This document shows positions 1,449 to 63,258 of a stretch of 64,000 nt of DNA, piece by piece. Each line of letters begins with the position of its first letter. The stretch's first letter is position 1. This DNA comes from a virus, in the IMG/VR virus record IMGVR_UViG_3300042934_001067, positions 32,001 through 96,000 of that record. The stretch is one strand, 5' to 3'. Below the pieces are notes generated by a model. The model did not search any database. It was not told the DNA's origin and saw nothing but the letters and a program-made list of their open reading frames with translations. The position numbers and the translations under genes were made by a program.

Positions 1449-1449
1449 A

Positions 1450-4004: not shown

Positions 4005-4032
4005 CGGCGCCTCCCTCAACGACCGTGCCTTC

Positions 4033-4067
4033 TCAGCCCTTGGGGGTGACCGCCGGTGCGGCGACAG
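4033..4067 (-). promoter_or_regulatory. Bipartite late-promoter-like motif
   Basis: CTGTC-N19-CCAAGGGCTGA. Confidence 0.6.
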
Positions 4068-4075
4068 CAAGGGGG

Positions 4076-4372
4076 TCAGCGGGAGGCGAGGAAGATGGAC
4101 GCCACGGCGACGATCAGGGCGAGGGTCGGGATGATGCCCTTGTAGATGAACTCGCGCAGACCCTGGGCCCGGGAGGAACGATCCTCCCGGGCTGCGCGGC
4201 CCAGTTCGTCCAGCTTCTCCTCGGCCGTACGGATCCGGGCCTCCAGGAGACGCTTCTCCGCGTCGAACTGGTCCTTGGTGACGTAGCTGTCGAGGCGGCT
4301 CTTCACGTCGGTGAGTTCGCGCTCAATCAGGCGCCACAGCTGCCCGACGTTCTCGGGGCTCTCACTGGCCAT
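4076..4372 (-). CDS. Holin-like membrane protein (coiled coil plus C-terminal TM helix)
   Basis: Directly downstream of endolysin; single C-terminal TM helix. Confidence 0.55.
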   Translation of the reverse strand: MASESPENVGQLWRLIERELTDVKSRLDSYVTKDQFDAEKRLLEARIRTAEEKLDELGRAAREDRSSRAQGLREFIYKGIIPTLALIVAVASIFLASR

Positions 4373-4400
4373 GCGCGTAACTCCTAGGTGGGGGTGGTCT

Positions 4401-4436
4401 TCACCCCTTGGCGGTGGCCGCGCACATGCCAGACAG
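4401..4436 (-). promoter_or_regulatory. Bipartite late-promoter-like motif
   Basis: CTGTC-N20-CCAAGGGGTGA. Confidence 0.65.
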
Positions 4437-4439
4437 GGC

Positions 4440-4476
4440 GAGGGCCCGGATCGTGGAGATCACAATCCGGGCCCTC
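4440..4476 (-). terminator. Terminator hairpin after endolysin
   Basis: GAGGGCCCGGAT...ATCCGGGCCCTC. Confidence 0.7.
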
Positions 4477-4486
4477 ACTGAGGGTG

Positions 4487-5596
4487 CTACTTCTTGCGCA
4501 GACCGTTGGCGACCTCGAAGGCGTACTGCCAGGTCTTCGGGCCGGTGAGGCCGTCGGCCGGGCCGAGCGCCGAGAGGTAGTGCTTCTGCAGGGCCTTGAC
4601 CTTGTCGAGGTCCTTCTGCGTCATGGTGTTGGACGGGCCGACGGTGTACTTCGGGCCCCAGTCGCCCTCGTCGAGCCAGGTCTGCAGCTGGCGGGCGTGG
4701 GTGTTCTTCGCACCGAGCTTGAAGTACTGGCGGCCGGGGAACGCCGGGCACTTCGGCTTGGCCTTGGAGGGGAGCGAGCCCAGCAGGTTCTTCAGGCTAC
4801 CCTCGCCGGGCACGCCGTCGGCGGCCTTGCCGGTGTGGCCGAGGCTCTTCTGGTAGTCGGCGTAGTTCAGGGTGTCGGCGTCGGACCACTCGGGGCCGGG
4901 GCCCTCCTGGTAGTGCTTGCCGAAGCCGCGCTTGACGAGGGCCTTGCCGACGGCCGTGACGTGCGCGCCCTCGGCGCCGTAGCCGTACTCCAGGCCGCTG
5001 ATGGTGACCCGGTAACGGGCGGGCGTGGACGGCTTGCCGCCGTCGGTGGACGGCTTGTCCGTCGAGGGCTTCTCGGCGTCCTTGCCCGGCTCCTTCCAGC
5101 CCGGGTCGGCGGAGTCCATGGCGTGGTCGTACTTCGGGTAGCCGTAGCCGTACACGTACGAGTTGTCCCGGCGGTACGACTTCTCGTACACCCCGTCGCC
5201 CTCGGCCGACCCGGAGGTGTTCGTGTTGCCCTCGATTGTCCATATGTGAGTGGAGTTGTACCGGGTGACGAGGCCGGTGTGCGAGCCGCCGTTCTTCCCG
5301 AAGAAGACCTGCGCGCCGACGGCCGGGTACCAGGAGAACCGGCCCCACTGGCGGTAGGTGTTGACGGCGTTGATGCAGCTCGCCGTGACGGGGACGCGCT
5401 TGCGGTCGCCGTTCTTGTGGAAGCCCCAGACGACGAAGGTGCAGCACCACGCCATCCAGTCCGACCACTCCAGGGTCGGCGTCTCGTCGCTGTACTTCTG
5501 GTCGTTGTTCCAGTGGCCGCCTGACCGGCCCTCGTGGTAGCCCTTCTCACCGACGAGCGTCGCTATGACCTTGCTCGCCTTGACCTCGACAGGCAT
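4487..5596 (-). CDS. Endolysin: CHAP amidase domain plus two peptidoglycan-binding domains
   Basis: AWCCTFV.W, HTGLV, TIEGNT CHAP motifs; ADGVPG and ADGLTGPKTW PG-binding motifs. Confidence 0.9.
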   Translation of the reverse strand: MPVEVKASKVIATLVGEKGYHEGRSGGHWNNDQKYSDETPTLEWSDWMAWCCTFVVWGFHKNGDRKRVPVTASCINAVNTYRQWGRFSWYPAVGAQVFFGKNGGSHTGLVTRYNSTHIWTIEGNTNTSGSAEGDGVYEKSYRRDNSYVYGYGYPKYDHAMDSADPGWKEPGKDAEKPSTDKPSTDGGKPSTPARYRVTISGLEYGYGAEGAHVTAVGKALVKRGFGKHYQEGPGPEWSDADTLNYADYQKSLGHTGKAADGVPGEGSLKNLLGSLPSKAKPKCPAFPGRQYFKLGAKNTHARQLQTWLDEGDWGPKYTVGPSNTMTQKDLDKVKALQKHYLSALGPADGLTGPKTWQYAFEVANGLRKK

Positions 5597-5622
5597 CTGG
5601 CCCTCCCCAGGGATCGGTTTTC

Positions 5623-5658
5623 TCACCCCTTGGGGAGGGCCCAGACGCTGTGCAACAG
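5623..5658 (-). promoter_or_regulatory. Bipartite late-promoter-like motif
   Basis: CTGTT-N20-CCAAGGGGTGA. Confidence 0.6.
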
Positions 5659-5664
5659 GAGAGG

Positions 5665-7506
5665 TCAGGCCGCCAGCTGGGTGACCGGGGCATACGCGCG
5701 CACCGGCGCCGTGGTGTCGCCGGTCGCCACCATCACGTTGGTCCCCACGCTCAGCGCGCCGCCGCCGTCGTCGTTGATGCCCGCCTGTGCGGCGTGCAGG
5801 TAGCAGTCGCCGATCTGGACCACGGAGGCCCCGGCGACGGAGACCCCGTACTGCGGAGAAGAGACACCAACGCCGTCGTCGTCCACGCCCGGGTAGCAGC
5901 TGACGGCAGAGGCGATGACGGGCATGGTGGCGCCCGCGACGGCCAAGCCCGCGTAGCCGCCGCCGCCGGAGCCACCGTTGCGGCCGTCACGGCGCGTCAT
6001 GAGGTTGGTGATGGTGATCGGCGCGTTGCCGGTGGCGTCGATGAGGACGCCGTGGCCGCCGTTGCGGTCGGTCGAACAGGCCGCCATCTGCAGGCCGCCG
6101 GAGCCGGTGCCGTTGCCCCAGGCGCCCGTCAGGGTGTAGCCGTGGCTGCCGTTCCACTCGGACCGGCAGGCCACGATCTGGCTGTTGGCGATGTTGCTGA
6201 GGACGTAACCCTGCCCCCAGCAGCCGATGACCTGGCAGTCGAGCATCGTCAGGTCCGTCATCCGGGTCAGCAGCGCGCCGTTGGCCCGGCAGTTGTCGAT
6301 CATGACGTTGGTCATGCGCCACGAGTACGGGAAGACGTTGTCCCGGCCGCCGGTGACGATGCCGTTGTTCGACATGCGGCGGATCGTCACGTCGGACATC
6401 CGGACGTTCTGAATGTTGCCCTCGGCGTAGATCCCGTCGACCGGCTTGGTGCCGTCCAGCACAGAGCCGTCCAGCATCAGGCTCTCGATACGGTGCTCGG
6501 CGGACAGCGCCGGGTAGCCCCCGGTCACCTGGTCCCGCAGGATCATCAGCGCGTTGCCCGTGAAGGACGGCAGCGGCACGATGCGGCACTGAGGGTCGGT
6601 CAGGTCCTCCGCGCTCATCATGTCCGCGCGAGGCCCGCGCACCGTGATCCCCGGCTTGGGCGTGATGGTGGCGGAGACGGCGTACACGCCCTCGGGGAGG
6701 TACACCGTGCCGCCGACCGGGCACGCCTCGATCGCCTCGGTGATGGCGAAGTAGTCGTCCGTGACGCCGTCCGCCTTCGCCCCGTACAGGGGGTCCTGGA
6801 CGTTGAGCCAGCCGAACACGGACTGGCTGAGCTGGCCCACGGTCGCTGCGTCCGTCGGCTGCACGCCCGGGGCGAGGTTGACGAAGCGCTGGGCGCCTGC
6901 GTCCACAGCGGCCGTCGGCTTGAACAGCTGATGCAGCGCGGGCATGGCGTGCACGTGCCGGGCGTCGGCCGCCTTGCCGCTGGCACCGGCCGCCCGGGTG
7001 CCCAGCGCCTGGATGTCCGTGTCATCGCCGCTGATCGGCGTGGTGCCCCCACCGCCACCCGAGCCGATGTCGGCAGGCAGATGCTCGTAGGGGACACGGC
7101 CGGAGCCGTCCAGGCCCGCGTAGCCGTTGGGCAGGTTCCGCTGATTGACCGGCTGGAAGAACACGCCGGGCGCGACCGCCTCGGCCAGCCGGGGCACGGT
7201 GGCCAGATCGACCGGACCGGCATCGAAGGGCACCGCGATGAAGTACGTCTCGGTCGCCAGGCCCGACAGGGTCTCCGTCACCTCGTACGTGCCGCCTCCC
7301 ACGGGCAGCGTGTCCGGGTCGTTGGTGGCGGGGACGGTCAGCGAGATCGCCCCTTGGGCGTCCAGCGTCGCGGTGTACGGCTTGCGGTCGGCCGTCTCGC
7401 CGCCGTTGAACAGCACACCGACGAGCTGCAGACGGACCGTCCCGGTACGGGGCAGGTCCGCGTCGTCGAGGTAGGTCCGCGTGACCGGGACCAGGGTGAA
7501 CGTCAT
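5665..7506 (-). CDS. Right-handed parallel beta-helix protein (pectate-lyase-3-like; tailspike or virion depolymerase candidate)
   Basis: NV.D..YGAKADGVTDD..AI..AI...GGTVYLPEGVY followed by beta-helix repeats. Confidence 0.85.
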   Translation of the reverse strand: MTFTLVPVTRTYLDDADLPRTGTVRLQLVGVLFNGGETADRKPYTATLDAQGAISLTVPATNDPDTLPVGGGTYEVTETLSGLATETYFIAVPFDAGPVDLATVPRLAEAVAPGVFFQPVNQRNLPNGYAGLDGSGRVPYEHLPADIGSGGGGGTTPISGDDTDIQALGTRAAGASGKAADARHVHAMPALHQLFKPTAAVDAGAQRFVNLAPGVQPTDAATVGQLSQSVFGWLNVQDPLYGAKADGVTDDYFAITEAIEACPVGGTVYLPEGVYAVSATITPKPGITVRGPRADMMSAEDLTDPQCRIVPLPSFTGNALMILRDQVTGGYPALSAEHRIESLMLDGSVLDGTKPVDGIYAEGNIQNVRMSDVTIRRMSNNGIVTGGRDNVFPYSWRMTNVMIDNCRANGALLTRMTDLTMLDCQVIGCWGQGYVLSNIANSQIVACRSEWNGSHGYTLTGAWGNGTGSGGLQMAACSTDRNGGHGVLIDATGNAPITITNLMTRRDGRNGGSGGGGYAGLAVAGATMPVIASAVSCYPGVDDDGVGVSSPQYGVSVAGASVVQIGDCYLHAAQAGINDDGGGALSVGTNVMVATGDTTAPVRAYAPVTQLAA

Positions 7507-9662
7507 ACCTGCAGCTCCTCGTTGATCGTGTCCTCCTTGAGGTGACGGCGCATGCCGAGGTGACGCGGCCCCTGGTAGAGGCCGACGGCCTCCTTGCGCT
7601 GGATCGCCACCGGGATCTCCTCGACGTCGGTCGCGGCAGGCACCAGGACCTTCGGCTTGTGCACGTTGGCCAGCGACCGGATCCGCTCGTGGTTCTGGAA
7701 CAGCTGCGTCGGCTCGTTCGGCGCGGGCCGCTGGGCGTACGGCGACAGCGAGGACTGCTTGGGCATGTCCCCGCGCTGCTCGTCGGACTCCGGCGGCCGG
7801 GAGCCCTGGTCGGCGTCGACCGGCTCCGGCACGCTGCCCGGCTCGACGACACCGCCGTCGGCCGGGGTGGTCTGCAGGTCCTGCATCGTCGGCGCGATCG
7901 TCGGCTGAGAGGTGACCGGGTCCATGCCCAGCAGCGGAATCCGCAGCGGCGCGGTCGGCACCTGGTTCGGGTCCTGGGCCTCCGGCAGCGCGCGCGCCTC
8001 GAAGTCCTTCTTCAGGTCGTCCGGGATCGGCAGGCCCTTGTCCCTGAGGGCGACGTAGATGGCCTTGCGTGTCTCCTGCTCCTGGACCGCCAGTTCGACG
8101 GCCTCCTCGCGCGACTTCTCGATCTCGTCGTCGAAGTCGATCGACACGTTGTGCAGCCGCGTCTTCATCGAGATCGGCACCCCGGCCTCGCGCAGCGCCT
8201 CGAAGAACTCGTTCTGCGCGGCCTCGTCCTGCAGCGACATGGTCCGGAACTTCAGGTCCGGAATGAGCAGCTTGGGCTGCTCGACGATCCGGCCCTCGCC
8301 CGACTCTTCGTCGATCTCGTAGACCTCCTCCATCTTCACGTACCGCTTGCCGCCGCGCTCCTCGTAGTCGAAGTGCTCCTGCGCCTCGGCGACGACCAGC
8401 GCCCGCTCCCGGTAGTGGGCGGCCACCATGTCCTGGTAGTTCGTCAGCATCTGCGTGACCAGGTCGCGGTTGAGGGCGTCGGCCGCGTACGTCTCACCCG
8501 AGGACGCACCGGCGAGCATCGTCTTGGACAGGCCGAACGTCTGCAGGACCCGGCCCTCGATCCGTTCGAAGTCGGGGCTGAGGTCGGGGATGTCCTCCTT
8601 GCCCAGCACGGACTCCATCTCGACCGCGAAGTGCGTCATGATGATCCGGAAGTCACCCGCGAGGGCCGCGTCCACCGCCTCCTCGAAGTCCGCGAGGTCG
8701 TCCAGCGTCGGAATCCACGGCACCTGCGTGCCCAGGTCCGACGCCGACGCGCCGAGCTTGGCGTGGATCAGCGGCGTGTACAGGCGGTCCGCAATCGAGT
8801 CGACGGCCGCATTCAACATTTCTTCCTGCATGAGCGAACGCATCGCCCTATACAGGAGCGGAACGCCCCGCTTGTTGAATGTGTCGGCCTCGAATTTCAT
8901 CTGCCGCAACAGAATGTTCGACACCGGCATCAGCGCATTGTCGTCGGCGTAATACGTCAGCTCCGGGTACGCCTCGACGAGCTTCTCGTACTCCCAGGCG
9001 GGCTGCCGGGTGCGGATCAGCTCCCGCATCGTCTGCGGCAGCCGGATCAGGAACCGGGGCTCGCGCAGGAACGGCGACGGCTGCACCTCGACGTCGTCGG
9101 GATTCAGCAGCTCCTCGTCGTCCCATACGCCCAGGTCCTCGTTGAACGTGCCCAGTGGCCACGCCTCGCCGACCGTCCAGTACTCCCGGCCCAGGTCGAT
9201 GAGGAACTTCCGGTAGTCCAGGCCGTCCTTCGAGAGGAAATGGTCGGTGTAGAACTCCGTGAGCCGCTCGTCCTTGCATGACATCTTGAGCCCGAGCAGC
9301 GGGTATTTCGAGTAAATGTCGACGCATGATCCGACGATCGGATGGCTGATGTACAGCAGGCGGCAGTACGCCCGCATCTTCGCCATCTGCGCCGGGTCGT
9401 CGAACTGAAACGGGAGATTGTTCTGCCTCCAATAAAAAAGCGGATCCCGGGGCCGCACCGTCGCGAACGACACCGACGGATTCGAGCCCACCCCGCCCCC
9501 GCCACCGGCCGCCACCTTCCGGGTGACCCGGCGGTTCTTCCGCATCTCGGACTCCTCGCCCGACTCCCCGGGGCTGGAGGAGAAGCGCCGGAACAACCGG
9601 TCGATCCGGGACTGCTCGGCGTCGAAGTTCTTCGGCTGCTCCGGGCGGGGCTTCTGGGCCAT
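7503..9662 (-). CDS. Phage portal protein
   Basis: 719 aa; RDPLFYWRQNNLP...CRLLY..HP.V.SC.DIYSKYP, LLNPDDVEV, RG.PLL.R patterns recalled from large actinophage portals. Confidence 0.75.
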   Translation of the reverse strand: MAQKPRPEQPKNFDAEQSRIDRLFRRFSSSPGESGEESEMRKNRRVTRKVAAGGGGGVGSNPSVSFATVRPRDPLFYWRQNNLPFQFDDPAQMAKMRAYCRLLYISHPIVGSCVDIYSKYPLLGLKMSCKDERLTEFYTDHFLSKDGLDYRKFLIDLGREYWTVGEAWPLGTFNEDLGVWDDEELLNPDDVEVQPSPFLREPRFLIRLPQTMRELIRTRQPAWEYEKLVEAYPELTYYADDNALMPVSNILLRQMKFEADTFNKRGVPLLYRAMRSLMQEEMLNAAVDSIADRLYTPLIHAKLGASASDLGTQVPWIPTLDDLADFEEAVDAALAGDFRIIMTHFAVEMESVLGKEDIPDLSPDFERIEGRVLQTFGLSKTMLAGASSGETYAADALNRDLVTQMLTNYQDMVAAHYRERALVVAEAQEHFDYEERGGKRYVKMEEVYEIDEESGEGRIVEQPKLLIPDLKFRTMSLQDEAAQNEFFEALREAGVPISMKTRLHNVSIDFDDEIEKSREEAVELAVQEQETRKAIYVALRDKGLPIPDDLKKDFEARALPEAQDPNQVPTAPLRIPLLGMDPVTSQPTIAPTMQDLQTTPADGGVVEPGSVPEPVDADQGSRPPESDEQRGDMPKQSSLSPYAQRPAPNEPTQLFQNHERIRSLANVHKPKVLVPAATDVEEIPVAIQRKEAVGLYQGPRHLGMRRHLKEDTINEELQV

Positions 9663-9680
9663 GGATCCTCCTGTGGTGGC

Positions 9681-9715
9681 TCACCCCTTGGGCCCGGGGA
9701 AGCCGCCACAGACAG
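9681..9715 (-). promoter_or_regulatory. Bipartite late-promoter-like motif
   Basis: CTGTC-N19-CCAAGGGGTGA. Confidence 0.65.
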
Positions 9716-9740
9716 GGCGCGGACGTGGAACGATGCGCCC

Positions 9741-10115
9741 ATGAGCGAACCCACACACGAGCAGATCGTCCAGGCGCTGCGGGACGGAGCCCGGGGCCAC
9801 ATGCCGCAGGAGGCCGCCGTGGAACTCCTGATCGAGGAGGAGTGGTGGCTGCGGCGCCTGACGGCGGAGGGCCTGGTCGAGTACACGGACGACCCGGACA
9901 TGCTGGCGGCGGACGGGAAGCCCATGGCGTTCATCGACTGGGTCAAGGCGGCCAAGCACCCCTGGCGAGCGTCCGGCGGTGAACGCGCCCTCCTGCAGGC
10001 CGCCTGCTCCATCGGATCCAGTCAGGTGGAGCTGAGCCTGTCCGACGTCTTCACCAGCATGGACAAGCACAACGCCGGACTGGTCCTCAAGTGGCTCCCC
10101 TGGATCAAGAGGTAG
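9741..10115 (+). CDS. Hypothetical protein, counter-oriented in the structural module
   Basis: Fills the gap between portal and 10105; globular composition (EAAVELLI...SGGERALL.AA.SI). Confidence 0.7.
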   Translation: MSEPTHEQIVQALRDGARGHMPQEAAVELLIEEEWWLRRLTAEGLVEYTDDPDMLAADGKPMAFIDWVKAAKHPWRASGGERALLQAACSIGSSQVELSLSDVFTSMDKHNAGLVLKWLPWIKR

Positions 10116-10293
10116 AGCCCTTGCGCCGCCGAGGAGCCTTCACCGGCGCGGCCGGGGCCTCCTCGGCCATTCCGTAGGCGACCAGCGTCCGCGCCCGCTC
10201 CCGCTGCCCGTCGGGCAGCGTCACCCACTCACCCGGCTGGTGCGTCTTCCCGTCCAGCGACAGCTGCACGAGCGCCTTCACGGAGCAGCTCAC
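10105..10293 (-). CDS. Small phage protein
   Basis: GGAGG SD and GTGA coupling. Confidence 0.65.
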   Translation of the reverse strand: MSCSVKALVQLSLDGKTHQPGEWVTLPDGQRERARTLVAYGMAEEAPAAPVKAPRRRKGSTS

Positions 10294-10793
10294 CGCGCAC
10301 CTCCCAGGAGCCCGGCCAGGTAGTCGACGTACGCGTCCCGGGCCAGCTGTCGGCCGCCCGCGCGGTAGGAGGACTCCTTCTTCCCGAACGGCGGCCCACC
10401 GCCGGAGTCGTCGTCACCCCCGCCGGAGTCCGGCGGGCCGTCCCCGGAACCCGAGTCGCTTGAGTCGCTGTCCTGGCCGAACGGCGGCGCCCCGCCGTCC
10501 TCCTGGCTCTCCGCGCCGGGCGGCATCGCGTTCGGGTCGTTCGGGTCACCGCCGGGCGGCATACCCGGCATCGACGGGGGCGGCATCCCGGGGATCTGCA
10601 CCGGCATCCCGTCGACCGACTGCGGGAACGCCGAGAACATCGGCTGCACCCGCACGAGGAACGCCTGATTGCAGAACGAGCACTCCGTGTTGCCGTCCGA
10701 GCGGCCGATGACCTGCCCCGAGCCGCAGAACGGGCAGTGCGCGATGGTGACCCCATCGCCGGACTGATGCGCCACCACGGGCCGCAGCGTCAT
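10290..10793 (-). CDS. Zinc-ribbon protein with P/G/D-rich tail
   Basis: CPFCGS...CSFC; GGAGGTG SD. Confidence 0.75.
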   Translation of the reverse strand: MTLRPVVAHQSGDGVTIAHCPFCGSGQVIGRSDGNTECSFCNQAFLVRVQPMFSAFPQSVDGMPVQIPGMPPPSMPGMPPGGDPNDPNAMPPGAESQEDGGAPPFGQDSDSSDSGSGDGPPDSGGGDDDSGGGPPFGKKESSYRAGGRQLARDAYVDYLAGLLGGAR

Positions 10794-10804
10794 ACCGCTC
10801 ACCT

Positions 10805-10839
10805 CCACCCCCTACAGGCGAAGGACCGGCCTCGGACAG
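10805..10839 (-). promoter_or_regulatory. Bipartite late-promoter-like motif (variant)
   Basis: CTGTC-N19-GTAGGGGGTGG. Confidence 0.5.
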
Positions 10840-10843
10840 CACA

Positions 10844-10876
10844 ACGCCCCTCCCATATAGCCGATGGGAGGGGCGT
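10844..10876 (-). terminator. Terminator hairpin
   Basis: ACGCCCCTCCCAT-7nt-ATGGGAGGGGCGT. Confidence 0.75.
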
Positions 10877-10903
10877 CGCGGTGCAATGCAGGGGCCCAGT
10901 CTA

Positions 10904-11119
10904 TCAGCCGCCGTTGATGATGTGGGGGATGAACCAGGCCGTCAGTCCGAGCCAGGCCGCCGTGAAGACGACCTTGCCCGGTGTGGACTTCGTGCGGAAC
11001 CAGTCCCGGGTGCGCTCGGAGAGGGTGTCGCCCTCGACCTTGTTGAACACCCCGTACATCTCGTAGGCGAACGCGGCGCCCAGGATGGCGCCCCAGCCGA
11101 CGTTCGGGTCCAGGTCCAT
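10904..11119 (-). CDS. Small 2-TM membrane protein
   Basis: AGGAG SD; two hydrophobic helices flanking DTLSE. Confidence 0.75.
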   Translation of the reverse strand: MDLDPNVGWGAILGAAFAYEMYGVFNKVEGDTLSERTRDWFRTKSTPGKVVFTAAWLGLTAWFIPHIINGG

Positions 11120-11127
11120 GACTGCTC

Positions 11128-12300
11128 CTACTCGAACAGGCTCGCGCCGTGCTGGAAGTGGGTCGGGATGTTCCAGTCCCGCCGCTCGGGCGAGGTGTGG
11201 GCGGGCTCGGCGTGGGAGAAGCCGTGCCCGGCCGGGTCGGTCGGCAGCGGCGCCTGGCCGGTGCCGTGGCCGGTGTCGGCGTGGGAGAACCCGGAGGGCA
11301 CCGGCGGCCGGTAGTGCTCGGAGGCGCCCGGCCCGGCCAGGTTCGCGTCCCACTTCTCGCTCATCTCGCCCCTTGCCTTGTCGAAGCCGGACAGCAGGTC
11401 GTCCGACGCGTGCTGGGTGGTGTACTCGGGGGACGCGCCCGGAGCGGCGGCGTTCGCGTCCCACTTCTTGTCCATCTCGTGCTTCGCGTCGTCGAAGCCG
11501 TGGAGCAGCTCGTGCGACGCTGCCGGGGGCTCCGGGTGCGTCGCGGGCGCGAAGGTGCTCGGGGCCGCGTCGGGTCCGTGCCGCCACCAGTCCTTCAGGC
11601 GCTGGTAGAAGCCCGCCACGGTGGGCTCCAGCGACGCCGTGGCGGTCGTGGCCGCCGCCGGGTTCGTCCGCCCCTCCAGGTCGTCCAGACGCCGGTTGAC
11701 CTCGTCGAAGGTGCCCGTGCCACCAGCGGCGCCCGGGTCAGCCGCCGGACGTCCTGCACTCTCGGGAAGCGCCTTCGGCATCCCGCCCGGCCTCCAGTGC
11801 TTGGCCCGGTCCGTGATCGGGCCGTCGGCCGCGCCGCCCCACGACTCGTACGCCAGCGGATAGGCATCCGCGTGCTTGCGCACGGCCTCGGTGGCCAGCT
11901 TCAGGCAGGTGGCCATCGGCACGCTGGGGTTCTCCCGGGCGGCCGTCGCCGCCAGATGCGCCACGGCCGCGTCCATGCCCCGCTCCTGAGCGGCCGTCAC
12001 CGCCCGTCGCGCGGCCGTCTTCTGCGCGGCCTCCTTCTTCGCGGTGGACAGCAGCTGCCAGCGGCGGGTCAGGTCGGCGGTCAGCTCGGCGACCGGGTAG
12101 CCACGCAGGCTGGCCACCGCCTGCAGCTGGGACTCGGCCAGCGCCAGACGGTTGGCCAGGTCGATGTCGTTGGCCGCCAGGTAGACGAACTGGCCTACCA
12201 GGCGCTCGGTGTCGGCCAGCGCGGCCGTACGGGCCAGCTCGCGCCGTTCCGCGTTGAGGTCGGCGCTTGCGCCGTCCCACATCAGGTCGGAAGTGTCCAT
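11128..12300 (-). CDS. Putative head or internal virion protein with internal repeat
   Basis: Position in structural module; duplicated LL.GFD.A..EM..KWDAN. Confidence 0.6.
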   Translation of the reverse strand: MDTSDLMWDGASADLNAERRELARTAALADTERLVGQFVYLAANDIDLANRLALAESQLQAVASLRGYPVAELTADLTRRWQLLSTAKKEAAQKTAARRAVTAAQERGMDAAVAHLAATAARENPSVPMATCLKLATEAVRKHADAYPLAYESWGGAADGPITDRAKHWRPGGMPKALPESAGRPAADPGAAGGTGTFDEVNRRLDDLEGRTNPAAATTATASLEPTVAGFYQRLKDWWRHGPDAAPSTFAPATHPEPPAASHELLHGFDDAKHEMDKKWDANAAAPGASPEYTTQHASDDLLSGFDKARGEMSEKWDANLAGPGASEHYRPPVPSGFSHADTGHGTGQAPLPTDPAGHGFSHAEPAHTSPERRDWNIPTHFQHGASLFE

Positions 12301-12303
12301 GGG

Positions 12304-14517
12304 TCAGGCGCCCTTCTTCTCTTCGAGCAGGCCCGCCTGCACGCGGCGGCGGAACGCGGACGCCGTCGGCGAGAGGCCGGAGCCGGTGTTGGTCGCGGAC
12401 GCCATGCCGGTGTCGGGGATGGTCACCGGCGTGCCCTGCGGGACGGACGGCGCGGGCGGCACGACCGGCTGCCCGAACGGCTCGGCCCCGTTGTAGGGGG
12501 CGGCACCGGCGGGGGCCGCCGCGTTCTGCTGGCCGTCGAGCGGGCCGGGACGGCCGGGGCCGTTGATCGGGGTGTCACCGGTCGGCGACGGCGACGTGGA
12601 CGGGTTCGTCGTGTCCAGGTCGATGCCGGTGGCGGCCTCGACGCGCAGGTACGTCCCGTCCGTCGGCAGGACCTGGGCGGCGGCGACCTTGTGGGTCAGC
12701 TCCCGGTGCCGGGTGATCCGCTCGCCCAGGCCCGGCTCCACTTCAGCCAGCGAGGCGTGCACGGACAGCCACGCCAGCCGCTGGCTGGGCAGGTCGGTGA
12801 GCGCCGCGTAGATCCCGGCCTCCAGCTCCGGCGAGCCCGGCCGCACGACCGGCACGCCCGGCTTCCAGCGGGCCGCGTACTTGTAGCCGCGCTGGAAGTC
12901 CGGGTGGGCCATCTCCTGCTTCGAGGCGACCTTCCGGGACGCGAACGCCGGGTGCATCCGGCCGGTGCCGTTGTCGCCGCCCATCGACACCGGCACGTTC
13001 TGCGCGGGCGCGGACGGCGCCGCGTTGGTGTAGGACTGGGTGTAGGCGGGAGCGGCGTGGGCGTCACCGAAGGACGGCGCAGCGTCCGGGTTGGCGGCAT
13101 CCGCCGCGCCGCTCCCGGCCTCCTGGACGTTGCGCGGCGGCGTGGTCGCCGGGGAGTTCGCGATGTTCGGCTGCGGGAACTGGTGGGGCTGGGTCCACTG
13201 GTCGGCCTGCACCCGCCGCGAGGCGTGCGCCTGGTGGCCGCCGGAGACCTCCCCGCCCTGGTCGTAGTGGGCCTGGCCGGTCATGCCGTCGGCCTGCTCG
13301 CCCTCGTCGAGGAGCCACGGGAACGCCACGGTGGTCGGAAGCGGCGTCGTGTGCGCCTGGTTGTTGACGTCGGTGGTCTGCTGGACCTGCTGCAGCCCGG
13401 ACGCGGCCTCCTTCTTCCGGCCGGGGAACGCCGGGCCCGCCTGCTGGGTCTGCTCGGTCTCCTCCTGCGCGGGCTCGGCCTCCGGCTGCTGGGCAGGACC
13501 GCCCTGGACCGGGATGTCGGCGTAGTCGGAGTGCCCGCCCGCCCGTTCCGGCGTGGAGTTCCCCCCGGCCGGGCCCTCACCGGCGAGCGAGGAGCCGCCC
13601 TCACCCCCGCCGCCGCTTCCGCCCAGCGACGGCTCCGCGCCCGGGCCGGTCATGTTCCCGGTCTCCGAGTGCCCGCCGGGCACCTCGGGGCTGGAGTTCC
13701 CGCCGCCGTTGACGGCCTGCTGGATCGCCGGGGCCCGGCTGGAGGTCTCCGTCCCGACGACGCCCTCGTTCATGTCGTTGACCGGCGGCGCGAAGTTGTC
13801 GAAGACGTCCGGAGGCAGCGGCGTCGCCTTCTCCGTCACCCCGTCCGGGGCCGTGGTCTGCTGGATCTGGTCCAGCCCGGACGCCGCCTCGTGCACGACC
13901 GCCCGGGACCGCAGGAACGCCGCGTAGTCCACGAACACCGACTCCGCCGTGGCAGCCTGCGTGCCCAGGCTCGCCGCGACGTGCCGCGCCATGCCCTTGG
14001 CCTGCTCGGTGAACTCCTGCTCGTCCCGCACGACGTTCTCCGGCACGTTGCCGTACCACAGGGCGGCCTGCGCGACCATGCGGCCGTGGTCGAACTCGTC
14101 GTCGGCGACCTCGCTCCCCAGCCAGTCCGACTCGGTCGTCCCGCGCGCGGTCCGGGAGATGACCGGCGTCATCGCCTCCCGGATCGCGGTGTCGGCCAGG
14201 TCCGCCTCACGGTCCAGGGCGGCGGTCCGCTGGGCAGCCCGGTCGAGGTCGTCGAGCTGCTTGACGAGCTGCAGCTGCTCGTCGAACGTGGCGGCGCTCT
14301 CGATCCGCTTCAGCAGCTCGGAGCGTTGGGTGCTGGGCGACATGCTGTTCTCCTCCTGCGCGCCCGCGCGGCGCATCCGGCGGCGTACGGACTTGTCTTC
14401 GCGGGAGGGGTTGCGGCGCGCACCACGCACAGCAGGACGCATCGGCTCACGAACGGACTCGTCATCGGTCCACAGGTCGTCCAGCGCATCCCGGTCTGTG
14501 TCGTACACGCGAATCAC
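12304..14517 (-). CDS. Putative head-assembly/scaffold-like protein with internal repeats
   Basis: Duplicated EAASGL.Q.QQT...TPLP; alternative starts at 14508 and 14343 (strong GGAGG). Confidence 0.6.
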   Translation of the reverse strand: MIRVYDTDRDALDDLWTDDESVREPMRPAVRGARRNPSREDKSVRRRMRRAGAQEENSMSPSTQRSELLKRIESAATFDEQLQLVKQLDDLDRAAQRTAALDREADLADTAIREAMTPVISRTARGTTESDWLGSEVADDEFDHGRMVAQAALWYGNVPENVVRDEQEFTEQAKGMARHVAASLGTQAATAESVFVDYAAFLRSRAVVHEAASGLDQIQQTTAPDGVTEKATPLPPDVFDNFAPPVNDMNEGVVGTETSSRAPAIQQAVNGGGNSSPEVPGGHSETGNMTGPGAEPSLGGSGGGGEGGSSLAGEGPAGGNSTPERAGGHSDYADIPVQGGPAQQPEAEPAQEETEQTQQAGPAFPGRKKEAASGLQQVQQTTDVNNQAHTTPLPTTVAFPWLLDEGEQADGMTGQAHYDQGGEVSGGHQAHASRRVQADQWTQPHQFPQPNIANSPATTPPRNVQEAGSGAADAANPDAAPSFGDAHAAPAYTQSYTNAAPSAPAQNVPVSMGGDNGTGRMHPAFASRKVASKQEMAHPDFQRGYKYAARWKPGVPVVRPGSPELEAGIYAALTDLPSQRLAWLSVHASLAEVEPGLGERITRHRELTHKVAAAQVLPTDGTYLRVEAATGIDLDTTNPSTSPSPTGDTPINGPGRPGPLDGQQNAAAPAGAAPYNGAEPFGQPVVPPAPSVPQGTPVTIPDTGMASATNTGSGLSPTASAFRRRVQAGLLEEKKGA

Positions 14518-14525
14518 CCCTCCTT

Positions 14526-14560
14526 CCGCCCCTTGGAGGGCCGAAGGAGGGGTGAGACAG
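14526..14560 (-). promoter_or_regulatory. Bipartite late-promoter-like motif
   Basis: CTGTC-N19-CCAAGGGGCGG. Confidence 0.6.
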
Positions 14561-14580
14561 GAAGAGGGAGAGGGAGGCTG

Positions 14581-16353
14581 TCAGCGACCGCCCTTGTTCG
14601 GCAGGTGCGGTCCGATGTACCCGATCTGCACCCTGCCCGTGGGACCGGCCGTGTCGTCGTAGAAGTGCAGGCGCGGCGCCGGAGGGCCGCCGAGCCCGAT
14701 CCGCATGTGCGCGTCCATGCACACCTCGCCCAGCCCGGGCACCGCGAACATCCGCGTCCTGCGCACCCGGTGGTCGGACCCGCCGTTCTTCACCGACGTG
14801 TCCGACGCCTCATGCATCGTCTTCGGGATCAGCGCCGTGGCCTGCGGCCACTCCAGGTACGCCGTGAAGTGCGGGAGTACATCCGGCCCGTGCTCGGCCT
14901 TCGCCTGCCCGTACGCCTCCAGCGCCTCCAGCGCCTCCCATGTCCGCCGCAGCCACGTCCGGGTCTTCGTGTGCCCGTACAGCTTCTGCAGCGGCCCGTG
15001 CACGCTGTCGAGGACGACCACATGCTGCAGCAGCCCGCTGGCCAGCTCCAGCAGCTCCTGCCAGCTCTTCGGCCCCTCCGGCCGATCCGGCGCCGGATCG
15101 GCGTACGACTGGCCCGGCACCTGGGCCCGCTCCCGCCGCAGCCACGCCACCTCGCTGGTCAGCCGCTCCACCTCGGCCTCGGCTGCCTCGTGCGCAGCCC
15201 ACGCCTCCTCGGCCTGCTCCATGGCCCGCCGGGTCTCACTGGACTGCGCCTCCTCCAGGAGCCGCTTCACGGCACTCTCAGCCGCCTCCTTGAGCTGCAG
15301 CAGCTTCTGGCCGTGCTGCTGCTCGGCCGTCAGCTCACCCCGCAGCTCGGTGAGCATCAGGTTCAGCCGCTCGTTCTCCTCTTCCGCGCGCCGCTTTTCC
15401 TCCAGCAGCCGCGAGGGTGCCGGGGCGATCTGGGGCAGCGCCCAGTTCTCGTGGAAGTCCTCGATCTCGGAGCGGACCTCCCGTTCGTAGTGCACCGGCA
15501 GCCGGGAGTACCGGACGACCGCCTCGGCGATCTCCTTCCGCAGCTGCTCCACCCCGCCGCCCGGCGGCCGACGGATACTGCAGTCGGCGACCGACCATCC
15601 CTCGGGACGGGGCCGGTTCGGCACGATCACCGCGCCACCCCACGGCACCTGGACCTTCAGGTCTCCCAGCTCCGTGTTGGCCTCCTGGTCCTGGTCGCCC
15701 CACAGCAGCGTTTCCACGACCCTTCCGGTCAGGCTCGGCGGCAGCAGCTTCGCCAGCCCCGGACTGTCCTCCTCCCTGACGTCGTCGATGTGCCGCCAGT
15801 CGTGCGTCAGCACCGTGATGTACGGCGCGTACGCCGTCAGCTCGGTCAGAACGCTCTGGGTCGGAACGTTCGCGCCGAAGCTGGTGGAGTCGAGGAGCGT
15901 CATCTGCCCGGAGGCCCAGTCGCAGGTCAGAAAGGGGTCCTTCGACAGGTCGAAGAACATCTCCAGGGGCGAGGGCCACTGTTCCTGCCACGGCTGGTCG
16001 GCCTCGGCCGTCAGCATCCATTCCATGCCGATACGCACGGCGCCGGGCTGGGAGAGGGCCTTCCTCGTCAGGCTCCTGTCCGTGGCCTCGCTCTTGCTGG
16101 GACGGATCTGCAGCCGGGCCCGGATGCAGGCGCCGTCACCAGTCCTCCAGGCAGCGTCGAATCCCCACCACCAGTCGCGGCACGCTCCAGCATCGTCAGG
16201 GTTGAACTCACGCAATTGCAGGATCCGCGACTGCTGGTGCAGGTCCTCGGTCCGTGCCTGGATGGACCGGAGGAAGTTCGGAACCCGGGAGTACCCCCGG
16301 GTCGACCACACCGTGTCCGGGCGGGGCAGAAACTGGTCCTTGCGCTTCGCCAT
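14581..16353 (-). CDS. Coiled-coil protein with C-terminal RelE/BECR-like candidate nuclease domain
   Basis: Central coiled coil; C-terminal H.RIG...PRLHFYDD....V.IGYIGPHL. Confidence 0.55.
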   Translation of the reverse strand: MAKRKDQFLPRPDTVWSTRGYSRVPNFLRSIQARTEDLHQQSRILQLREFNPDDAGACRDWWWGFDAAWRTGDGACIRARLQIRPSKSEATDRSLTRKALSQPGAVRIGMEWMLTAEADQPWQEQWPSPLEMFFDLSKDPFLTCDWASGQMTLLDSTSFGANVPTQSVLTELTAYAPYITVLTHDWRHIDDVREEDSPGLAKLLPPSLTGRVVETLLWGDQDQEANTELGDLKVQVPWGGAVIVPNRPRPEGWSVADCSIRRPPGGGVEQLRKEIAEAVVRYSRLPVHYEREVRSEIEDFHENWALPQIAPAPSRLLEEKRRAEEENERLNLMLTELRGELTAEQQHGQKLLQLKEAAESAVKRLLEEAQSSETRRAMEQAEEAWAAHEAAEAEVERLTSEVAWLRRERAQVPGQSYADPAPDRPEGPKSWQELLELASGLLQHVVVLDSVHGPLQKLYGHTKTRTWLRRTWEALEALEAYGQAKAEHGPDVLPHFTAYLEWPQATALIPKTMHEASDTSVKNGGSDHRVRRTRMFAVPGLGEVCMDAHMRIGLGGPPAPRLHFYDDTAGPTGRVQIGYIGPHLPNKGGR

Positions 16354-16426
16354 GGCGATCTCCCTTTGCTGTGGCGGTAGTCAGATTGTGTCGAGAGGCA
16401 CCGACAACCACCGCCAAAGCACAGAA

Positions 16427-16972
16427 TCAGCGCATCTGGTAGCGAGATTCCGTCGGGCCGTACTGGCCCTGATAGTGGTTGCCCGCGCTCCCGTACGGCC
16501 GCTCGGGGGCGGCCGACATCGGGATCAGGCACAGCTGGGCGATCGGCATCATGCGGCGCAGCCGGATCGGGCGGCCCGACAGGTTGGCGATCTCCAGCGT
16601 GATCTGTCCGGTGAACCCGGGGTCGATGAAGCCCGCCGTCACGTGCACGGTCAGGCCCAACCGGCCCAGGGAACTCTTGCCTTCGACCCTGGCCGCCAGG
16701 TCCGGCGGCAGGGTCACGCGCTCGACGGTGCAGGCCAGGAGGAAGTCCCCCGGGTCCAGCAGCCAGCCGTCCTCGCCGATCTGGTCGAGTGCGGTGTGCC
16801 GGGGCTGGATGTCCGCGACGTCGATCTCGGCCCACTTCGGTCCGGCGAGGGTGCGCACGTACTGGTCGAGGAGCAGGTCGACCGAGGCGGGCTGTACCCG
16901 CTCGGGGTCGAACGGAGAGACGTCCAGGTCCCCTTGGGTGATGCGGTCGGTGATCTGCCAGTCGGCGAGCAT
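16427..16972 (-). CDS. dcd: dCTP deaminase
   Basis: VQPASVDL, RVEGKSSLGRLGL.VH.TAGFIDPGF.GQITLE, I.QL, Y.GQ.GPT.SR. Confidence 0.95.
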   Translation of the reverse strand: MLADWQITDRITQGDLDVSPFDPERVQPASVDLLLDQYVRTLAGPKWAEIDVADIQPRHTALDQIGEDGWLLDPGDFLLACTVERVTLPPDLAARVEGKSSLGRLGLTVHVTAGFIDPGFTGQITLEIANLSGRPIRLRRMMPIAQLCLIPMSAAPERPYGSAGNHYQGQYGPTESRYQMR

Positions 16973-16988
16973 GTGGTGGCCCCTTTCT

Positions 16989-17023
16989 CCACCCCATAGG
17001 CCCGCCGACCGGCGGAGCGACAG
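16989..17023 (-). promoter_or_regulatory. Bipartite late-promoter-like motif (variant)
   Basis: CTGTC-N19-CTATGGGGTGG. Confidence 0.55.
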
Positions 17024-17034
17024 CTACCCCCGCT

Positions 17035-17517
17035 TCACGCCGCACTCCGCAGCGGCCGGGCGTGGCCGGACGCCTTCTGGTCTGCGACACCGAGGACGAC
17101 GGCGGAAGCGCACGGCCACCTCACCGTGCTGATGCCTGTCATCGTCCACAGGTCACCATCGAGGCTGATTGTGGTGCTGCGGTGCACGATCTGGCACCGC
17201 CTGCAGATCAGGCCGATGGCCCGCCCGTCGATGAACCCGGACACCGGCCGGTGTCCGAAGTCGGCGGCCGACGCGAACGGCACACCCCGGCCCGGCAGGC
17301 ACGCCAGACACGGCCGCTTCCCGGACAGGTAGTACGCGTAGTGCTCAGGCGCCCGCCGGACGGCGTAGCCGCCGAACCACGGCGCGCCGAGCGGGTAGTC
17401 GTCGGGACTGTCGCCGTCCCACAGGGCCTGCGCCGACTCCAGCGCGTGGCAGTCCTGTGTTCCGTGGTACTTCCTGCCGCCCTGCGAGTAGAACACCATG
17501 GTCAGCTCGTCAGCCAC
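17035..17517 (-). CDS. Cys/His-rich hypothetical protein
   Basis: KYH...C..L...PC..C metal-binding pattern; coupled. Confidence 0.7.
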   Translation of the reverse strand: MADELTMVFYSQGGRKYHGTQDCHALESAQALWDGDSPDDYPLGAPWFGGYAVRRAPEHYAYYLSGKRPCLACLPGRGVPFASAADFGHRPVSGFIDGRAIGLICRRCQIVHRSTTISLDGDLWTMTGISTVRWPCASAVVLGVADQKASGHARPLRSAA

Positions 17518-17686
17518 GGCGCTCTCCCGCCTGCGCGAGGCGCGCAGGCAGCCCCCACGGCCAGAACCACACGGTGATGGCGACGAGCCAGCCGACGAAG
17601 ATCGCCACGTCGAGGAATCCCGTGAACCAGTCTGCGGCGGCGCCAGCGGCGACTCCGGCCGCCGCGCCCCCTACAGTGCGCCACAT
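17510..17686 (-). CDS. Small membrane protein
   Basis: GGAGG SD, TGATG overlap. Confidence 0.65.
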   Translation of the reverse strand: MWRTVGGAAAGVAAGAAADWFTGFLDVAIFVGWLVAITVWFWPWGLPARLAQAGERRG

Positions 17687-17883
17687 CAGTCGGACCTCCC
17701 GCCGTTCATCAGCCAGATCATGGCCGCACCCAGGCCGTAGGCGATGACGTCGAAGAGCCGGGCCCATACCGCGAGCACCACTGCGGCGCCGACGAGGACG
17801 GCAACCTCGGTGCTGTCCGTGGCGGCCTGGGCGATGCCTCCACAGGCGGCACCGGCGACGAGACCTATCGGGAACCGCTTCAT
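17686..17883 (-). CDS. Small membrane protein
   Basis: AAGGAG SD, ATGA overlap. Confidence 0.65.
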   Translation of the reverse strand: MKRFPIGLVAGAACGGIAQAATDSTEVAVLVGAAVVLAVWARLFDVIAYGLGAAMIWLMNGGRSD

Positions 17884-18467
17884 GCCACGGTCTCCTTCAC
17901 CAGCGCGACGACCGGGTGCTCGGGGCAGTGCGGGACGTCCTCGACACCCACGGTCCAGCCCTCGGGCAGCGGCTCGCCGAGGAGCACGGCCGCCGTGCAC
18001 GTCGAGGTAGGAGTACCACCGCAGCGGACCCGGGGCCCGTTCTCCGGCGCCGAGCGGACCCGCCGCGAGACGAGCGGAGCACCCCCGCTGGCACGGGCGG
18101 CCTCACCGTGCAGAGCGACCAACTCGTCGGTCCACACGGTCGTGAGGTCACGAAGGTAGTCCATCTGCGCCTGCACAATCCGCACCCGGACCCGCATCGG
18201 CAGCAGCCGCCGCCAGCCACCGAGCCCGTCGTACAGGGCCTCGATCATCCGGTCGGCGTACCAGGCGATCTGACCCTGCCGGGTCTTCTTCAGCTGCTGC
18301 AGGTCCTGGCGCTGCCGGGTACGCATCCGGCGGGCGTACAGTCCCGCGATGAGGAACGCCAGATCGTCGTCGGTCATCGCGTCGAAGACCCGCTCCTGCG
18401 GGAAGAACTGCCCGTGCGGGTAGTAGACGAGCGACACGCGCCCCACGTTCTCGTTGCTGCTGTTCAT
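17880..18467 (-). CDS. Hypothetical protein
   Basis: SD and ATGA coupling. Confidence 0.7.
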   Translation of the reverse strand: MNSSNENVGRVSLVYYPHGQFFPQERVFDAMTDDDLAFLIAGLYARRMRTRQRQDLQQLKKTRQGQIAWYADRMIEALYDGLGGWRRLLPMRVRVRIVQAQMDYLRDLTTVWTDELVALHGEAARASGGAPLVSRRVRSAPENGPRVRCGGTPTSTCTAAVLLGEPLPEGWTVGVEDVPHCPEHPVVALVKETVA

Positions 18468-18988: not shown

Positions 18989-19013
18989 GGCGGGTTGCCC
19001 CCCTTTCGTTCAG

Positions 19014-19458: not shown

Positions 19459-19470
19459 AGCGGCATCGGA

Positions 19471-63033: not shown

Positions 63034-63258
63034 GGCGGACTCCTCTCCACCCACTGGGGCCACGCGAACCCCTGTGGACAGCGTCGCGGCAATTGGTCAT
63101 ATGCCATGTTCGCCAGGGGTCTTTTCTCGATCTGAGAATGTGTCATACCTTCGACGTGCGGACACACAGAGTGATCAAGTGAGTACGCGTCGGTCACACG
63201 CGTGCCCGCACCTGCCCCGCCACGGGACAGGTCCACCTCCACACCAGAGGAGCAGGAC

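What the first reader, a model, noticed from the sequence alone, without database searches (positions are those of the whole stretch)
4033..17023. Second promoter class, CTGTC-N19/20-nnAnGGGGTG, precedes nearly every virion and lysis transcription unit
Seen: seven (-) strand copies at 4033, 4401, 5623, 9681, 10805, 14526 and 16989. Five read CCAAGGG in the proximal box. Spacing is fixed at 19-20 nt, and each lies about 10-32 nt before a gene start, two of them right after a terminator hairpin. The motif resembles no standard sigma70 -10. Inference: a late promoter read by a phage-encoded sigma factor, RNA polymerase or activator encoded outside the window. dcd carries it too, which is unexpected for a nucleotide-metabolism gene.
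Basis: partly seen in the sequence, partly recalled or inferred. Interest (0 to 1): 0.75.

Follow-up and report, generated by a model that had tools for sequence, protein, structure and literature searches.

The report
Late promoter class of actinobacterial myophages
A two-part DNA signal (CTGTC, 21-22 bases, AAGGGGTG) sits in front of about 25 virion, packaging and lysis operons of a 156-kb Streptomyces phage-plasmid and recurs as far away as mycobacteriophage Myrna. It is most likely their late promoter, read with a small phage protein that carries only the -35-binding domain of a sigma factor.

Summary
All seven copies are real. The whole 156-kb genome has about 25 copies against 0-1 in a reversed-sequence control. 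All lie on the gene strand, and nearly all lie between genes just ahead of a ribosome site. They precede portal, endolysin, protease, capsid operon, sheath, baseplate, terminase and dcd.

The two boxes and their 21-22-bp spacing are kept in five complete relatives (66-70% GC and one at 45%) while the spacer drifts. Myrna has the same architecture; E3 has two full two-box copies.

The genome has no sigma region 2, no T7-type RNA polymerase, and no sigma70-like promoter in this stretch. The only regulator found in every motif-bearing genome is a 128-aa protein with a sigma region-4 fold, encoded outside the window.

New here: at about a third of the Streptomyces-clade sites the spacer pairs with the downstream Shine-Dalgarno or start codon, and the pairing covaries among orthologues. 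This resembles T4 gene e, where read-through RNA is masked and promoter-initiated RNA is open.

No transcription start site has been mapped, so promoter function remains an inference. Other first readers noted the same motif in other windows of this genome.

The parts
4034..4067 (-). Late-promoter copy 1: CTGTC at 4067-4063, 21-nt spacer, AAGGGCTG at 4041-4034. It precedes the 706-aa gene 1884-4004 (phrog_2940). Spacer bases 4058-4051 pair with 4009-4002, which include the GTG start.
   Evidence: orthologue covariation p=0.02
4402..4436 (-). Copy 2: CTGTC at 4436-4432, 22-nt spacer, AAGGGGTG at 4409-4402. It precedes the 98-aa gene 4076-4372. The spacer does not pair with the ribosome site.
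4438..4478 (-). Perfect 41-nt terminator-like hairpin (-37 kcal/mol) ending 1 nt before copy 2.
   Evidence: conserved position in relatives
5624..5658 (-). Copy 3: CTGTT at 5658-5654, 22-nt spacer, AAGGGGTG at 5631-5624. It precedes the endolysin gene 4487-5596. Spacer bases 5641-5632 pair perfectly (10 bp) with the Shine-Dalgarno stretch 5608-5599. This is the strongest mask in the genome.
   Evidence: self -37.7 kcal/mol, better than all 32 cross pairs; kept in L041
9682..9715 (-). Copy 4: CTGTC at 9715-9711, 21-nt spacer, AAGGGGTG at 9689-9682. It precedes the portal gene 7503-9662 and lies at a divergent junction with the + strand gene 9741-10115. Bases 9710-9701 pair with 9681-9672, which abut the Shine-Dalgarno sequence.
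   Evidence: orthologue covariation p=0.0004
10806..10839 (-). Copy 5: CTGTC at 10839-10835, 21-nt spacer, AGGGGGTG at 10813-10806. The Shine-Dalgarno sequence abuts the box and the ATG lies 16 nt after it. It precedes the gene ending at 10290. The spacer does not pair with the ribosome site.
10840..10880 (-). Perfect 41-nt terminator-like hairpin (-33 kcal/mol) ending right at copy 5. Its arms differ among relatives but stay complementary.
14527..14560 (-). Copy 6: CTGTC at 14560-14556, 21-nt spacer, AAGGGGCG at 14534-14527. It precedes the roughly 735-aa gene ending at 12304. By alignment with relatives the start is the GTG at 14508. Bases 14554-14543 pair perfectly (12 bp) with the Shine-Dalgarno stretch 14526-14515.
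   Evidence: L040 carries changes on both arms
16990..17023 (-). Copy 7: CTGTC at 17023-17019, 21-nt spacer, ATGGGGTG at 16997-16990. It precedes dcd (16427-16972) and is the first late unit after the early block. Bases 17013-17003 pair with codons 2-6 (16967-16957).
   Evidence: three different covarying solutions in orthologues, p=0.005
63048..63081 (-). Weak extra copy (17.9-22 bits): CTGTC, 21 nt, AGTGGGTG. It lies before the 89-aa ORF 62785-63054, next to a + strand gene.
   Evidence: function of the ORF unknown

Best explanation
The motif is the late promoter of this phage family. It is a bipartite double-stranded DNA signal: a -35-like box, (T/C)(G/C)CTGTC(C), and a G-rich proximal box. 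The proximal box reads AARRGGTRR across the family and AAGGGGTGA here. The two boxes are held exactly 21-22 bp apart.

Inferred mechanism: host RNA polymerase is directed to the motif by the phage's 128-aa sigma-region-4-like protein (genome 114718-115104, outside the window). That protein would sit on the beta flap and read CTGTC. What reads the proximal box is unknown.

Inferred geometry: transcription starts at or within a few bases after the proximal box. This would put CTGTC at about -35. It also fits the tightest sites, where the Shine-Dalgarno sequence abuts the box.

Inferred second layer: at about a third of the sites in the Streptomyces clade, the spacer is complementary to the downstream Shine-Dalgarno or start codon. 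The spacer would lie upstream of the start site. RNA reading through from upstream would therefore fold and hide the ribosome site, while RNA started at the late promoter would lack the 5' arm and be translated. T4 genes e, soc, 49 and I-TevI work this way.

Shown: the motif, its regulon, its conservation, the covarying pairing, and the sigma-4 fold and distribution of the candidate protein. Inferred: initiation at the motif, the factor, and the masking function.

The confidence of 0.7 is for the motif being a late promoter. I put the sigma-4-like protein as its factor at about 0.45 and the masking function at about 0.5.
For: Statistics and placement:
- About 25 copies against 0-1 in controls. 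All copies scoring 16.6 bits or more are on the gene strand, and nearly all lie just ahead of a gene start.

Regulon:
- Portal, endolysin and minor tail.
- Prohead protease, sheath, baseplate and tape-measure-like genes.
- Capsid operon.
- Large terminase, which sits alone among replication genes.

No alternative promoter or polymerase:
- No sigma70-type promoter in window 3900-17200.
- No sigma region 2 and no T7-like polymerase.

Sites that need their own promoter:
- The portal site, genome 29471/30159 and 95055 head leftward units directly after rightward genes.

Conservation:
- Information content is confined to the two boxes.
- The spacing is fixed in five complete relatives from 45 to 70% GC.
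- The motif is kept before orthologues of one gene in 26 loci.
- Myrna has 11 forward and 1 reverse copy, with controls at 0 and 1.
- E3 has two full two-box copies, which does not exceed shuffles.

The candidate factor:
- Pfam Sigma70_r4_2 at 28 bits against a cut-off of 25.7.
- The model has pLDDT 88.5, and its best structural matches are all sigma region 4 (Z 6-7).
- Its invariant residues cluster in the recognition helix.
- It is present in G001-G005, E3 (gp160) and Myrna (gp201).
- The WhiB-like and alpha-CTD-like genes are not universal.

The mask:
- Spacer-to-ribosome-site pairing is stronger within a site than between sites: p=5e-5, 1e-4 and 3.5e-4 in G000, G001 and G002.
- It covaries within orthologue groups: portal p=0.0004, dcd p=0.005.
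- It is strongest at the endolysin gene and at the early-late boundary (dcd).
- T4 precedent: PMC3014915.
Against: - No 5'-end or expression data exist for any member, so initiation at the motif is untested.
- The 21-22-bp gap is 4-5 bp longer than in any sigma70 or ECF promoter.
- The proximal box looks like a Shine-Dalgarno sequence, not a -10 element.
- The candidate protein has no region 2, so it cannot melt DNA alone, and no partner was found. The syntenic 234-aa neighbour weakly resembles T4 UvsY instead.
- The pairing is not significant in G003 or G005.
- The idea that terminators and masks are alternatives is not supported genome-wide (Spearman 0.21, p=0.3).
- Gene starts came from my own crude caller.
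Confidence: 0.7

Rival explanations
1. The motif works in RNA. It would be a processing site or a translational operator or enhancer in long late transcripts. The conserved boxes would be bound by a phage or host protein, or by the 16S 3' end, and the hairpins would be part of the element.
For: GGGGTGA can pair with the anti-Shine-Dalgarno sequence over 7 bases (sequence inspection). The box always lies just 5' of the true ribosome site. Many copies sit in covarying hairpins, so RNA containing the spacer is under selection.
Against: The two boxes keep a fixed linear distance while the hairpin geometry around them varies, and hairpins are absent from two of the seven window sites. No site-specific pairing is seen in G003 or G005, yet the motif is fully kept there. 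Several copies head units with no co-directional gene upstream. No Rfam family matches. The only conserved candidate factor has a DNA-binding sigma-4 fold.
Confidence: 0.12
2. The motif is a DNA site for a regulator that is not itself the promoter. It could be an activator, antiterminator-loading or repressor site next to a weak, unrecognised host-sigma promoter. One candidate is a stress sigma of the SigB/SigF class, whose -10 reads GGGTA (from my own knowledge).
For: The proximal box contains GGGTG here and GGGTA in G005 and Myrna. The candidate protein lacks region 2, so a host sigma may still be needed.
Against: Nothing is conserved in the spacer at 14-17 nt upstream of GGGT, where a SigB/F -35 would lie. 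The motif is kept in phages whose own GC content ranges from 45 to 70% and whose known hosts span Streptomyces, Mycobacterium and Rhodococcus. The boxes are asymmetric, unlike the sites of typical dimeric regulators.
Confidence: 0.12
3. The motif is a chance or compositional artefact of a GC-rich genome.
For: Single exact matches occur by chance in very large collections.
Against: 4 exact matches against 0.04 expected. About 25 PWM hits against 0-1 in controls, with complete strand bias. Conserved in a relative with 45% GC.
Confidence: 0.01

Closest known systems
Phage T4 late promoters, and the masked ribosome sites of T4 genes e, soc, 49 and I-TevI (PMC3014915)
   Same: A phage-specific late signal lies immediately upstream of the ribosome site. 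The DNA that encodes the 5' arm of an inhibitory hairpin carries the late promoter, so only late-initiated RNA is translatable. Here too the lysis enzyme has the strongest mask.
   Different: The T4 signal is a single -10 box (TATAAATA) read by gp55 (region-2-like) with gp33 and the sliding clamp. Here the signal is bipartite, with a -35-like box. The candidate factor is region-4-like, and no gp55-like protein was found.
ECF sigma promoters and sigma region 4 bound to the -35 element (e.g. 2H27, 6JHE, 6DV9)
   Same: A short asymmetric -35-type box and rigid spacing. The candidate protein's C-terminal 70 residues superpose on these region-4 domains (Z 6-7).
   Different: ECF spacing is 16-17 bp and the -10 is CGTC-like (from my own knowledge). 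ECF sigmas have region 2, which this 128-aa protein lacks.
Rhodococcus phage E3 gp160 ('putative RNA polymerase sigma-70 factor, region 4') and Myrna gp201
   Same: They are orthologues of the candidate factor: profile E 5.9e-10 for E3, 45% identity between E3 and Myrna, and the same neighbours. Myrna carries the same two-box architecture; E3 has two full copies.
   Different: The proximal box differs: AAKNRGTRG in Myrna and TCAATWGG in E3, where the distal box is often absent. No function or promoter is recorded for them in the records or in the papers I could search.
RinA/ArpU/LtrC late activators of Gram-positive siphophages, and Mu Mor/C (from my own knowledge, not tested)
   Same: Small phage proteins with a sigma-4-like or HTH domain that switch on packaging, virion and lysis operons.
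   Different: Those usually act at one or a few promoters with a host-type -10. Here about 25 sites have their own conserved proximal box. No sequence relation was tested.
Start-associated sequences (SAS/ESAS) of Cluster K mycobacteriophages (from my own knowledge)
   Same: A repeated conserved motif close to the translation starts of a subset of genes.
   Different: SAS overlaps the Shine-Dalgarno sequence at a fixed short distance from the start. Here the distance to the start varies (about 8-56 nt), a separate Shine-Dalgarno sequence follows, and a second box lies 21-22 bp upstream.

Membership tests
Housekeeping sigma70 (HrdB-type) promoter | TTGACN, 16-18 bp, TANNNT | tested here: not met
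   0 consensus matches in window 3900-17200. The logos show neither hexamer.
ECF-sigma-type promoter | Rigid 16-17-bp spacing between a -35 box and a short -10 box | tested here: not met
   The spacing is rigid, but it is 21 bp (18 sites) or 22 bp (7 sites) in G000. Only a weak C-rich patch lies about 16 nt after CTGTC.
Complete sigma70-family factor (candidate 128-aa protein) | Region 2 (core binding, -10 melting) together with region 4 | tested here: not met
   PF04542 gives no match anywhere in the genome at E<=1. The protein has only 55 residues ahead of region 4, and they match no sigma-2 structure.
Sigma70 region 4 domain (PF08281) | Pfam score above the curated cut-off, and a region-4 fold | tested here: met
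   28.0 bits against a cut-off of 25.7. The top 14 VIA matches and most of the top 30 are sigma region 4: Z 5-7, rmsd 1.9-4.5 A, 57-82 residues aligned. Z below 8 is modest on its own, but it agrees with the Pfam hit.
T4-type masked ribosome site with an embedded late promoter | The 3' arm covers the Shine-Dalgarno or start codon, and the pairing is under selection | tested here: met
   Five of seven window sites. Covariation at portal p=0.0004, dcd p=0.005 and gene 1884-4004 p=0.02.
T4-type masked ribosome site with an embedded late promoter | Late transcripts start between the two arms | not testable with these tools
   No 5'-end data exist for any member.
T4 late promoter (gp55/gp33) | A single -10 box TATAAATA with no -35 element | tested here: not met
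   The motif is bipartite and G-rich. A gp55 homologue was not searched for specifically.
Known RNA family (Rfam 15) | A match at the gathering score | tested here: not met
   Only two sub-threshold chance hits in window 1-20000.
Single-subunit phage RNA polymerase promoter | A phage-type RNA polymerase gene in the genome | tested here: inconclusive
   PF00940 found nothing, but the same search rang in none of the control genomes either.

The most novel reading that the evidence does not exclude
A sigma-region-4-only protein, with no region-2 partner, retargets host RNA polymerase to bipartite promoters with a 21-22-bp gap. Their G-rich, Shine-Dalgarno-like proximal box would be read in a non-canonical way: by core polymerase, by a remodelled host sigma, or as the start of the transcript. 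This would be a previously undescribed mode of promoter recognition. It would be shared by a large lineage of actinobacterial myophages (Streptomyces phage-plasmids, Rhodococcus E3, Cluster C mycobacteriophages). It would be coupled to a T4-like system that masks read-through translation.
Probability: 0.3. Interest if true: 0.8.

Novelty: new variant of a known kind. Interest (0 to 1): 0.62.

Why it matters
The late gene control of this lineage appears undescribed; I found no paper on it. The lineage includes more than 200 isolated Cluster C mycobacteriophages and many 150-157-kb elements carried by Streptomyces isolates.

The motif gives a ready map of late transcription units. It also gives a compact candidate promoter-plus-factor pair for orthogonal expression in Streptomyces and Mycobacterium.

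It offers a testable case of a minimal sigma-like factor. It also shows that hiding the ribosome site inside a promoter-bearing hairpin, known from T4, arose again in high-GC Gram-positive phages.

For a phage that can live as a plasmid, such masking would help keep lysis and virion genes silent.

Tried and rejected
- **234-aa syntenic neighbour as the missing region-2 subunit.** I folded it (pLDDT 81). The best, weak match is T4 UvsY, which fits its place next to a resolvase. Rejected.
- **Alpha-CTD-like ORF (window 26519-26920) as a co-factor.** Its rpoA hits are only weak (E 0.02-0.08). It is present only in the closest relative, G001, and not in G002, G003, G005 or Myrna. Rejected as a conserved factor.
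- **WhiB-like gene (genome 130967-131125).** Absent from G003 and Myrna. Not the common factor.
- **E3 gp134/gp135 ('SigBFG' annotation).** No relation to the candidate protein.
- **Terminator versus mask as alternatives.** Three of the four sites that follow perfect hairpins lack a mask, but the genome-wide correlation is not significant.
- **Exact-pattern scan of all prokaryote genomes.** Uninformative.
- **Megablast against isolated phages.** Only short endolysin matches, so there is no close isolate.
- **Single-sequence tblastn of the sigma-4-like protein against isolated phages.** No match. Only the profile search reached E3.
- **My first hairpin scan.** It missed odd-length stems. I repeated it.
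Full report
**What the element is.**
- The window is bases 32001-96000 of a 156,276-bp virus record with 69% GC.
- The portal protein is 36-40% identical to those of Gordonia phage Stormageddon, Rhodococcus phages E3 and Finch, and Cluster C mycobacteriophages.
- No isolated phage is close at the DNA level.
- Near relatives are 150-157-kb contigs in Streptomyces isolate assemblies. One was deposited as the circular plasmid pRLB1-9.1 (PMC11571958).

**The observation.**
- All seven copies are in the sequence. The literal pattern occurs 4 times against 0.04 expected, and the other three copies differ by one base.
- Counted from CTGTC to AAGGGGTG, the gap is 21 or 22 nt.
- AGGGGTG and CAAGGGG are the most intergenic-enriched 7-mers of the genome.
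- A two-block weight matrix finds about 25 copies. Every hit of 16.6 bits or more is on the minus strand, and nearly all lie just ahead of a minus-strand gene. Reversed-sequence controls give 0-1.
- Almost all copies fall in the block that runs from about genome 50,000 down through the record ends to about 142,000. Four lie outside it: before the large terminase (111122), at 128909 before a 49-aa ORF, at 95055 (window 63055), and at 149397.

**The regulon.** Genes directly downstream of a copy:
- Portal, endolysin and a pectate-lyase-like minor tail protein in the portal operon.
- A prohead-protease polyprotein, the tail sheath, virion proteins, a tape-measure/lysozyme-like protein and baseplate W- and J-like proteins.
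- The operon that ends in the major head protein.
- The large terminase.
- dcd.

The motif passes that test.

**Conservation.**
- A portal search returned 36 viral loci at 51-95% identity. The motif is on the gene strand in all high-GC relatives. It is kept before orthologous genes while the flanks and spacer diverge.
- I fetched four complete relatives. Refined scans give 28 sites in G001, 26 in G002, 23 in G003 and 17 in G005, which has 44.7% GC. Controls give 0-5.
- Information content sits only in the two boxes, and the gap stays at 21-22 nt. The G005 value is corrected for a 1-nt anchor shift.
- The proximal box drifts: AAGGGGTGA in G000/G001, GAAGGGGTGA in G002, GAAGAGGTGA in G003 and AAAGGGTAGA in G005.
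- Mycobacteriophage Myrna has the same layout. A relaxed pattern gives 8 forward copies in 41 kb against a shuffle mean of 0.5. In the whole genome it gives 11 forward and 1 reverse, with controls at 0 and 1.
- Rhodococcus phage E3 has six TCAATWGG boxes before structural genes. Two carry CTGTC at the matching distance. Its two-box count (3 forward) does not exceed shuffles.

**DNA signal or RNA signal?**
- Folding the sites showed that the spacer is often complementary to the downstream Shine-Dalgarno or start region. Pairing within a site is stronger than between sites in G000, G001 and G002 (p=5e-5, 1e-4, 3.5e-4). It is not stronger in G003 or G005.
- Within orthologue groups the pairing covaries for portal (p=0.0004), dcd (p=0.005) and gene 1884-4004 (p=0.02). 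For dcd, three different N-terminal coding sequences each have a matching spacer.
- So RNA that contains the spacer exists and is under selection. The hairpins, however, are an add-on:
  - they are absent from two window sites;
  - their geometry relative to the boxes varies;
  - the motif is fully kept in genomes without them.
- Several copies also head leftward units straight after rightward genes, where a promoter is required.
- The simplest reading is a DNA promoter whose spacer lies upstream of the start site. Read-through RNA would then be masked and promoter-initiated RNA open. This is documented for T4 genes e, soc, 49 and I-TevI (PMC3014915).
- The strongest masks are at the endolysin gene and at dcd, the first late unit after the co-directional early genes.

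**Where the start site probably lies.** In the tightest sites the Shine-Dalgarno sequence abuts the proximal box. A start at or just after the box keeps the ribosome site in the RNA and places CTGTC near -35. This is inference only.

**The factor.**
- The genome has no sigma region 2 and no T7-like polymerase (the control for that search was uninformative).
- It has one region-4 match: a 128-aa protein at genome 114718-115104.
- The protein has 74 homologues of 113-160 aa, many on Streptomyces contigs of about 150 kb.
- The model is confident (pLDDT 88.5). Its best structural matches are all sigma region 4.
- Its invariant residues cluster in the recognition helix, which fits an almost invariant CTGTC.
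- It is present in all five relatives (50-80% identity). E3 gp160 and the N-terminus of Myrna gp201 are orthologues in the same gene neighbourhood.
- The WhiB-like and alpha-CTD-like genes are not universal. The 234-aa neighbour weakly resembles T4 UvsY.
- How the proximal box is read, and whether a host sigma is still needed, remains open.

**Known or new?**
- Phage late promoters, phage sigma-like factors and T4-type masking are established ideas.
- I found no description of this motif, of its factor, or of the masking in this lineage. That search covers open-access text only.
- The long rigid gap, the Shine-Dalgarno-like proximal box and a region-4-only factor set it apart from known promoter classes.
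- Other first readers of this scan noted the same motif in other windows of this genome. I confirmed their terminase copy and did not confirm the alpha-CTD co-factor idea.

Noticed in passing
whole genome; L038-L041: Relatives of this phage are separate 150-157-kb contigs in many Streptomyces isolate assemblies. One is deposited as the circular plasmid pRLB1-9.1, which was lost from two-thirds of recombinants in mating experiments (PMC11571958). The papers I read do not mention that it is phage-like.
   Followed up: partly
L080:2253-2755 (genome 22253-22755): A 500-nt gap after the major head gene holds two tandem motif copies (genome 22410 and 22293). A perfect hairpin lies between them, ahead of a 127-aa gene with no family match.
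   Followed up: no
window 9741-10115 (+): A 124-aa gene on the opposite strand is inserted divergently next to the portal promoter. The 95%-identical relative L002 has a different divergent gene there, and more distant relatives have a co-directional gene.
   Followed up: partly
L001:1925-2629 (genome 115250-115954, minus): A conserved 234-aa protein next to the sigma-4-like gene. Its model weakly resembles the T4 recombination mediator UvsY (TM 0.66 on the target). In E3 and Myrna it sits beside a resolvase.
   Followed up: partly
L090 (Myrna) and L088/L089 (E3): Myrna gp201 is a 297-aa protein. Only its first 130 or so residues match the sigma-4-like family, and the rest is a charged extension. 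E3 annotates a second small 'SigBFG' sigma fragment (gp134) that is unrelated to the candidate.
   Followed up: partly
G005 (L017 record, 123,830 bp, 44.7% GC): A low-GC relative with direct terminal repeats. It keeps the motif, the sigma-4-like gene and a WhiB-like gene, which suggests a low-GC actinobacterial host.
   Followed up: no
intergenic regions genome-wide: A second set of intergenic-enriched words (TGCATTAG, CAATGCA, GCTAGAC) marks another motif class. It is probably the early promoter/operator cassette noted by other readers.
   Followed up: no
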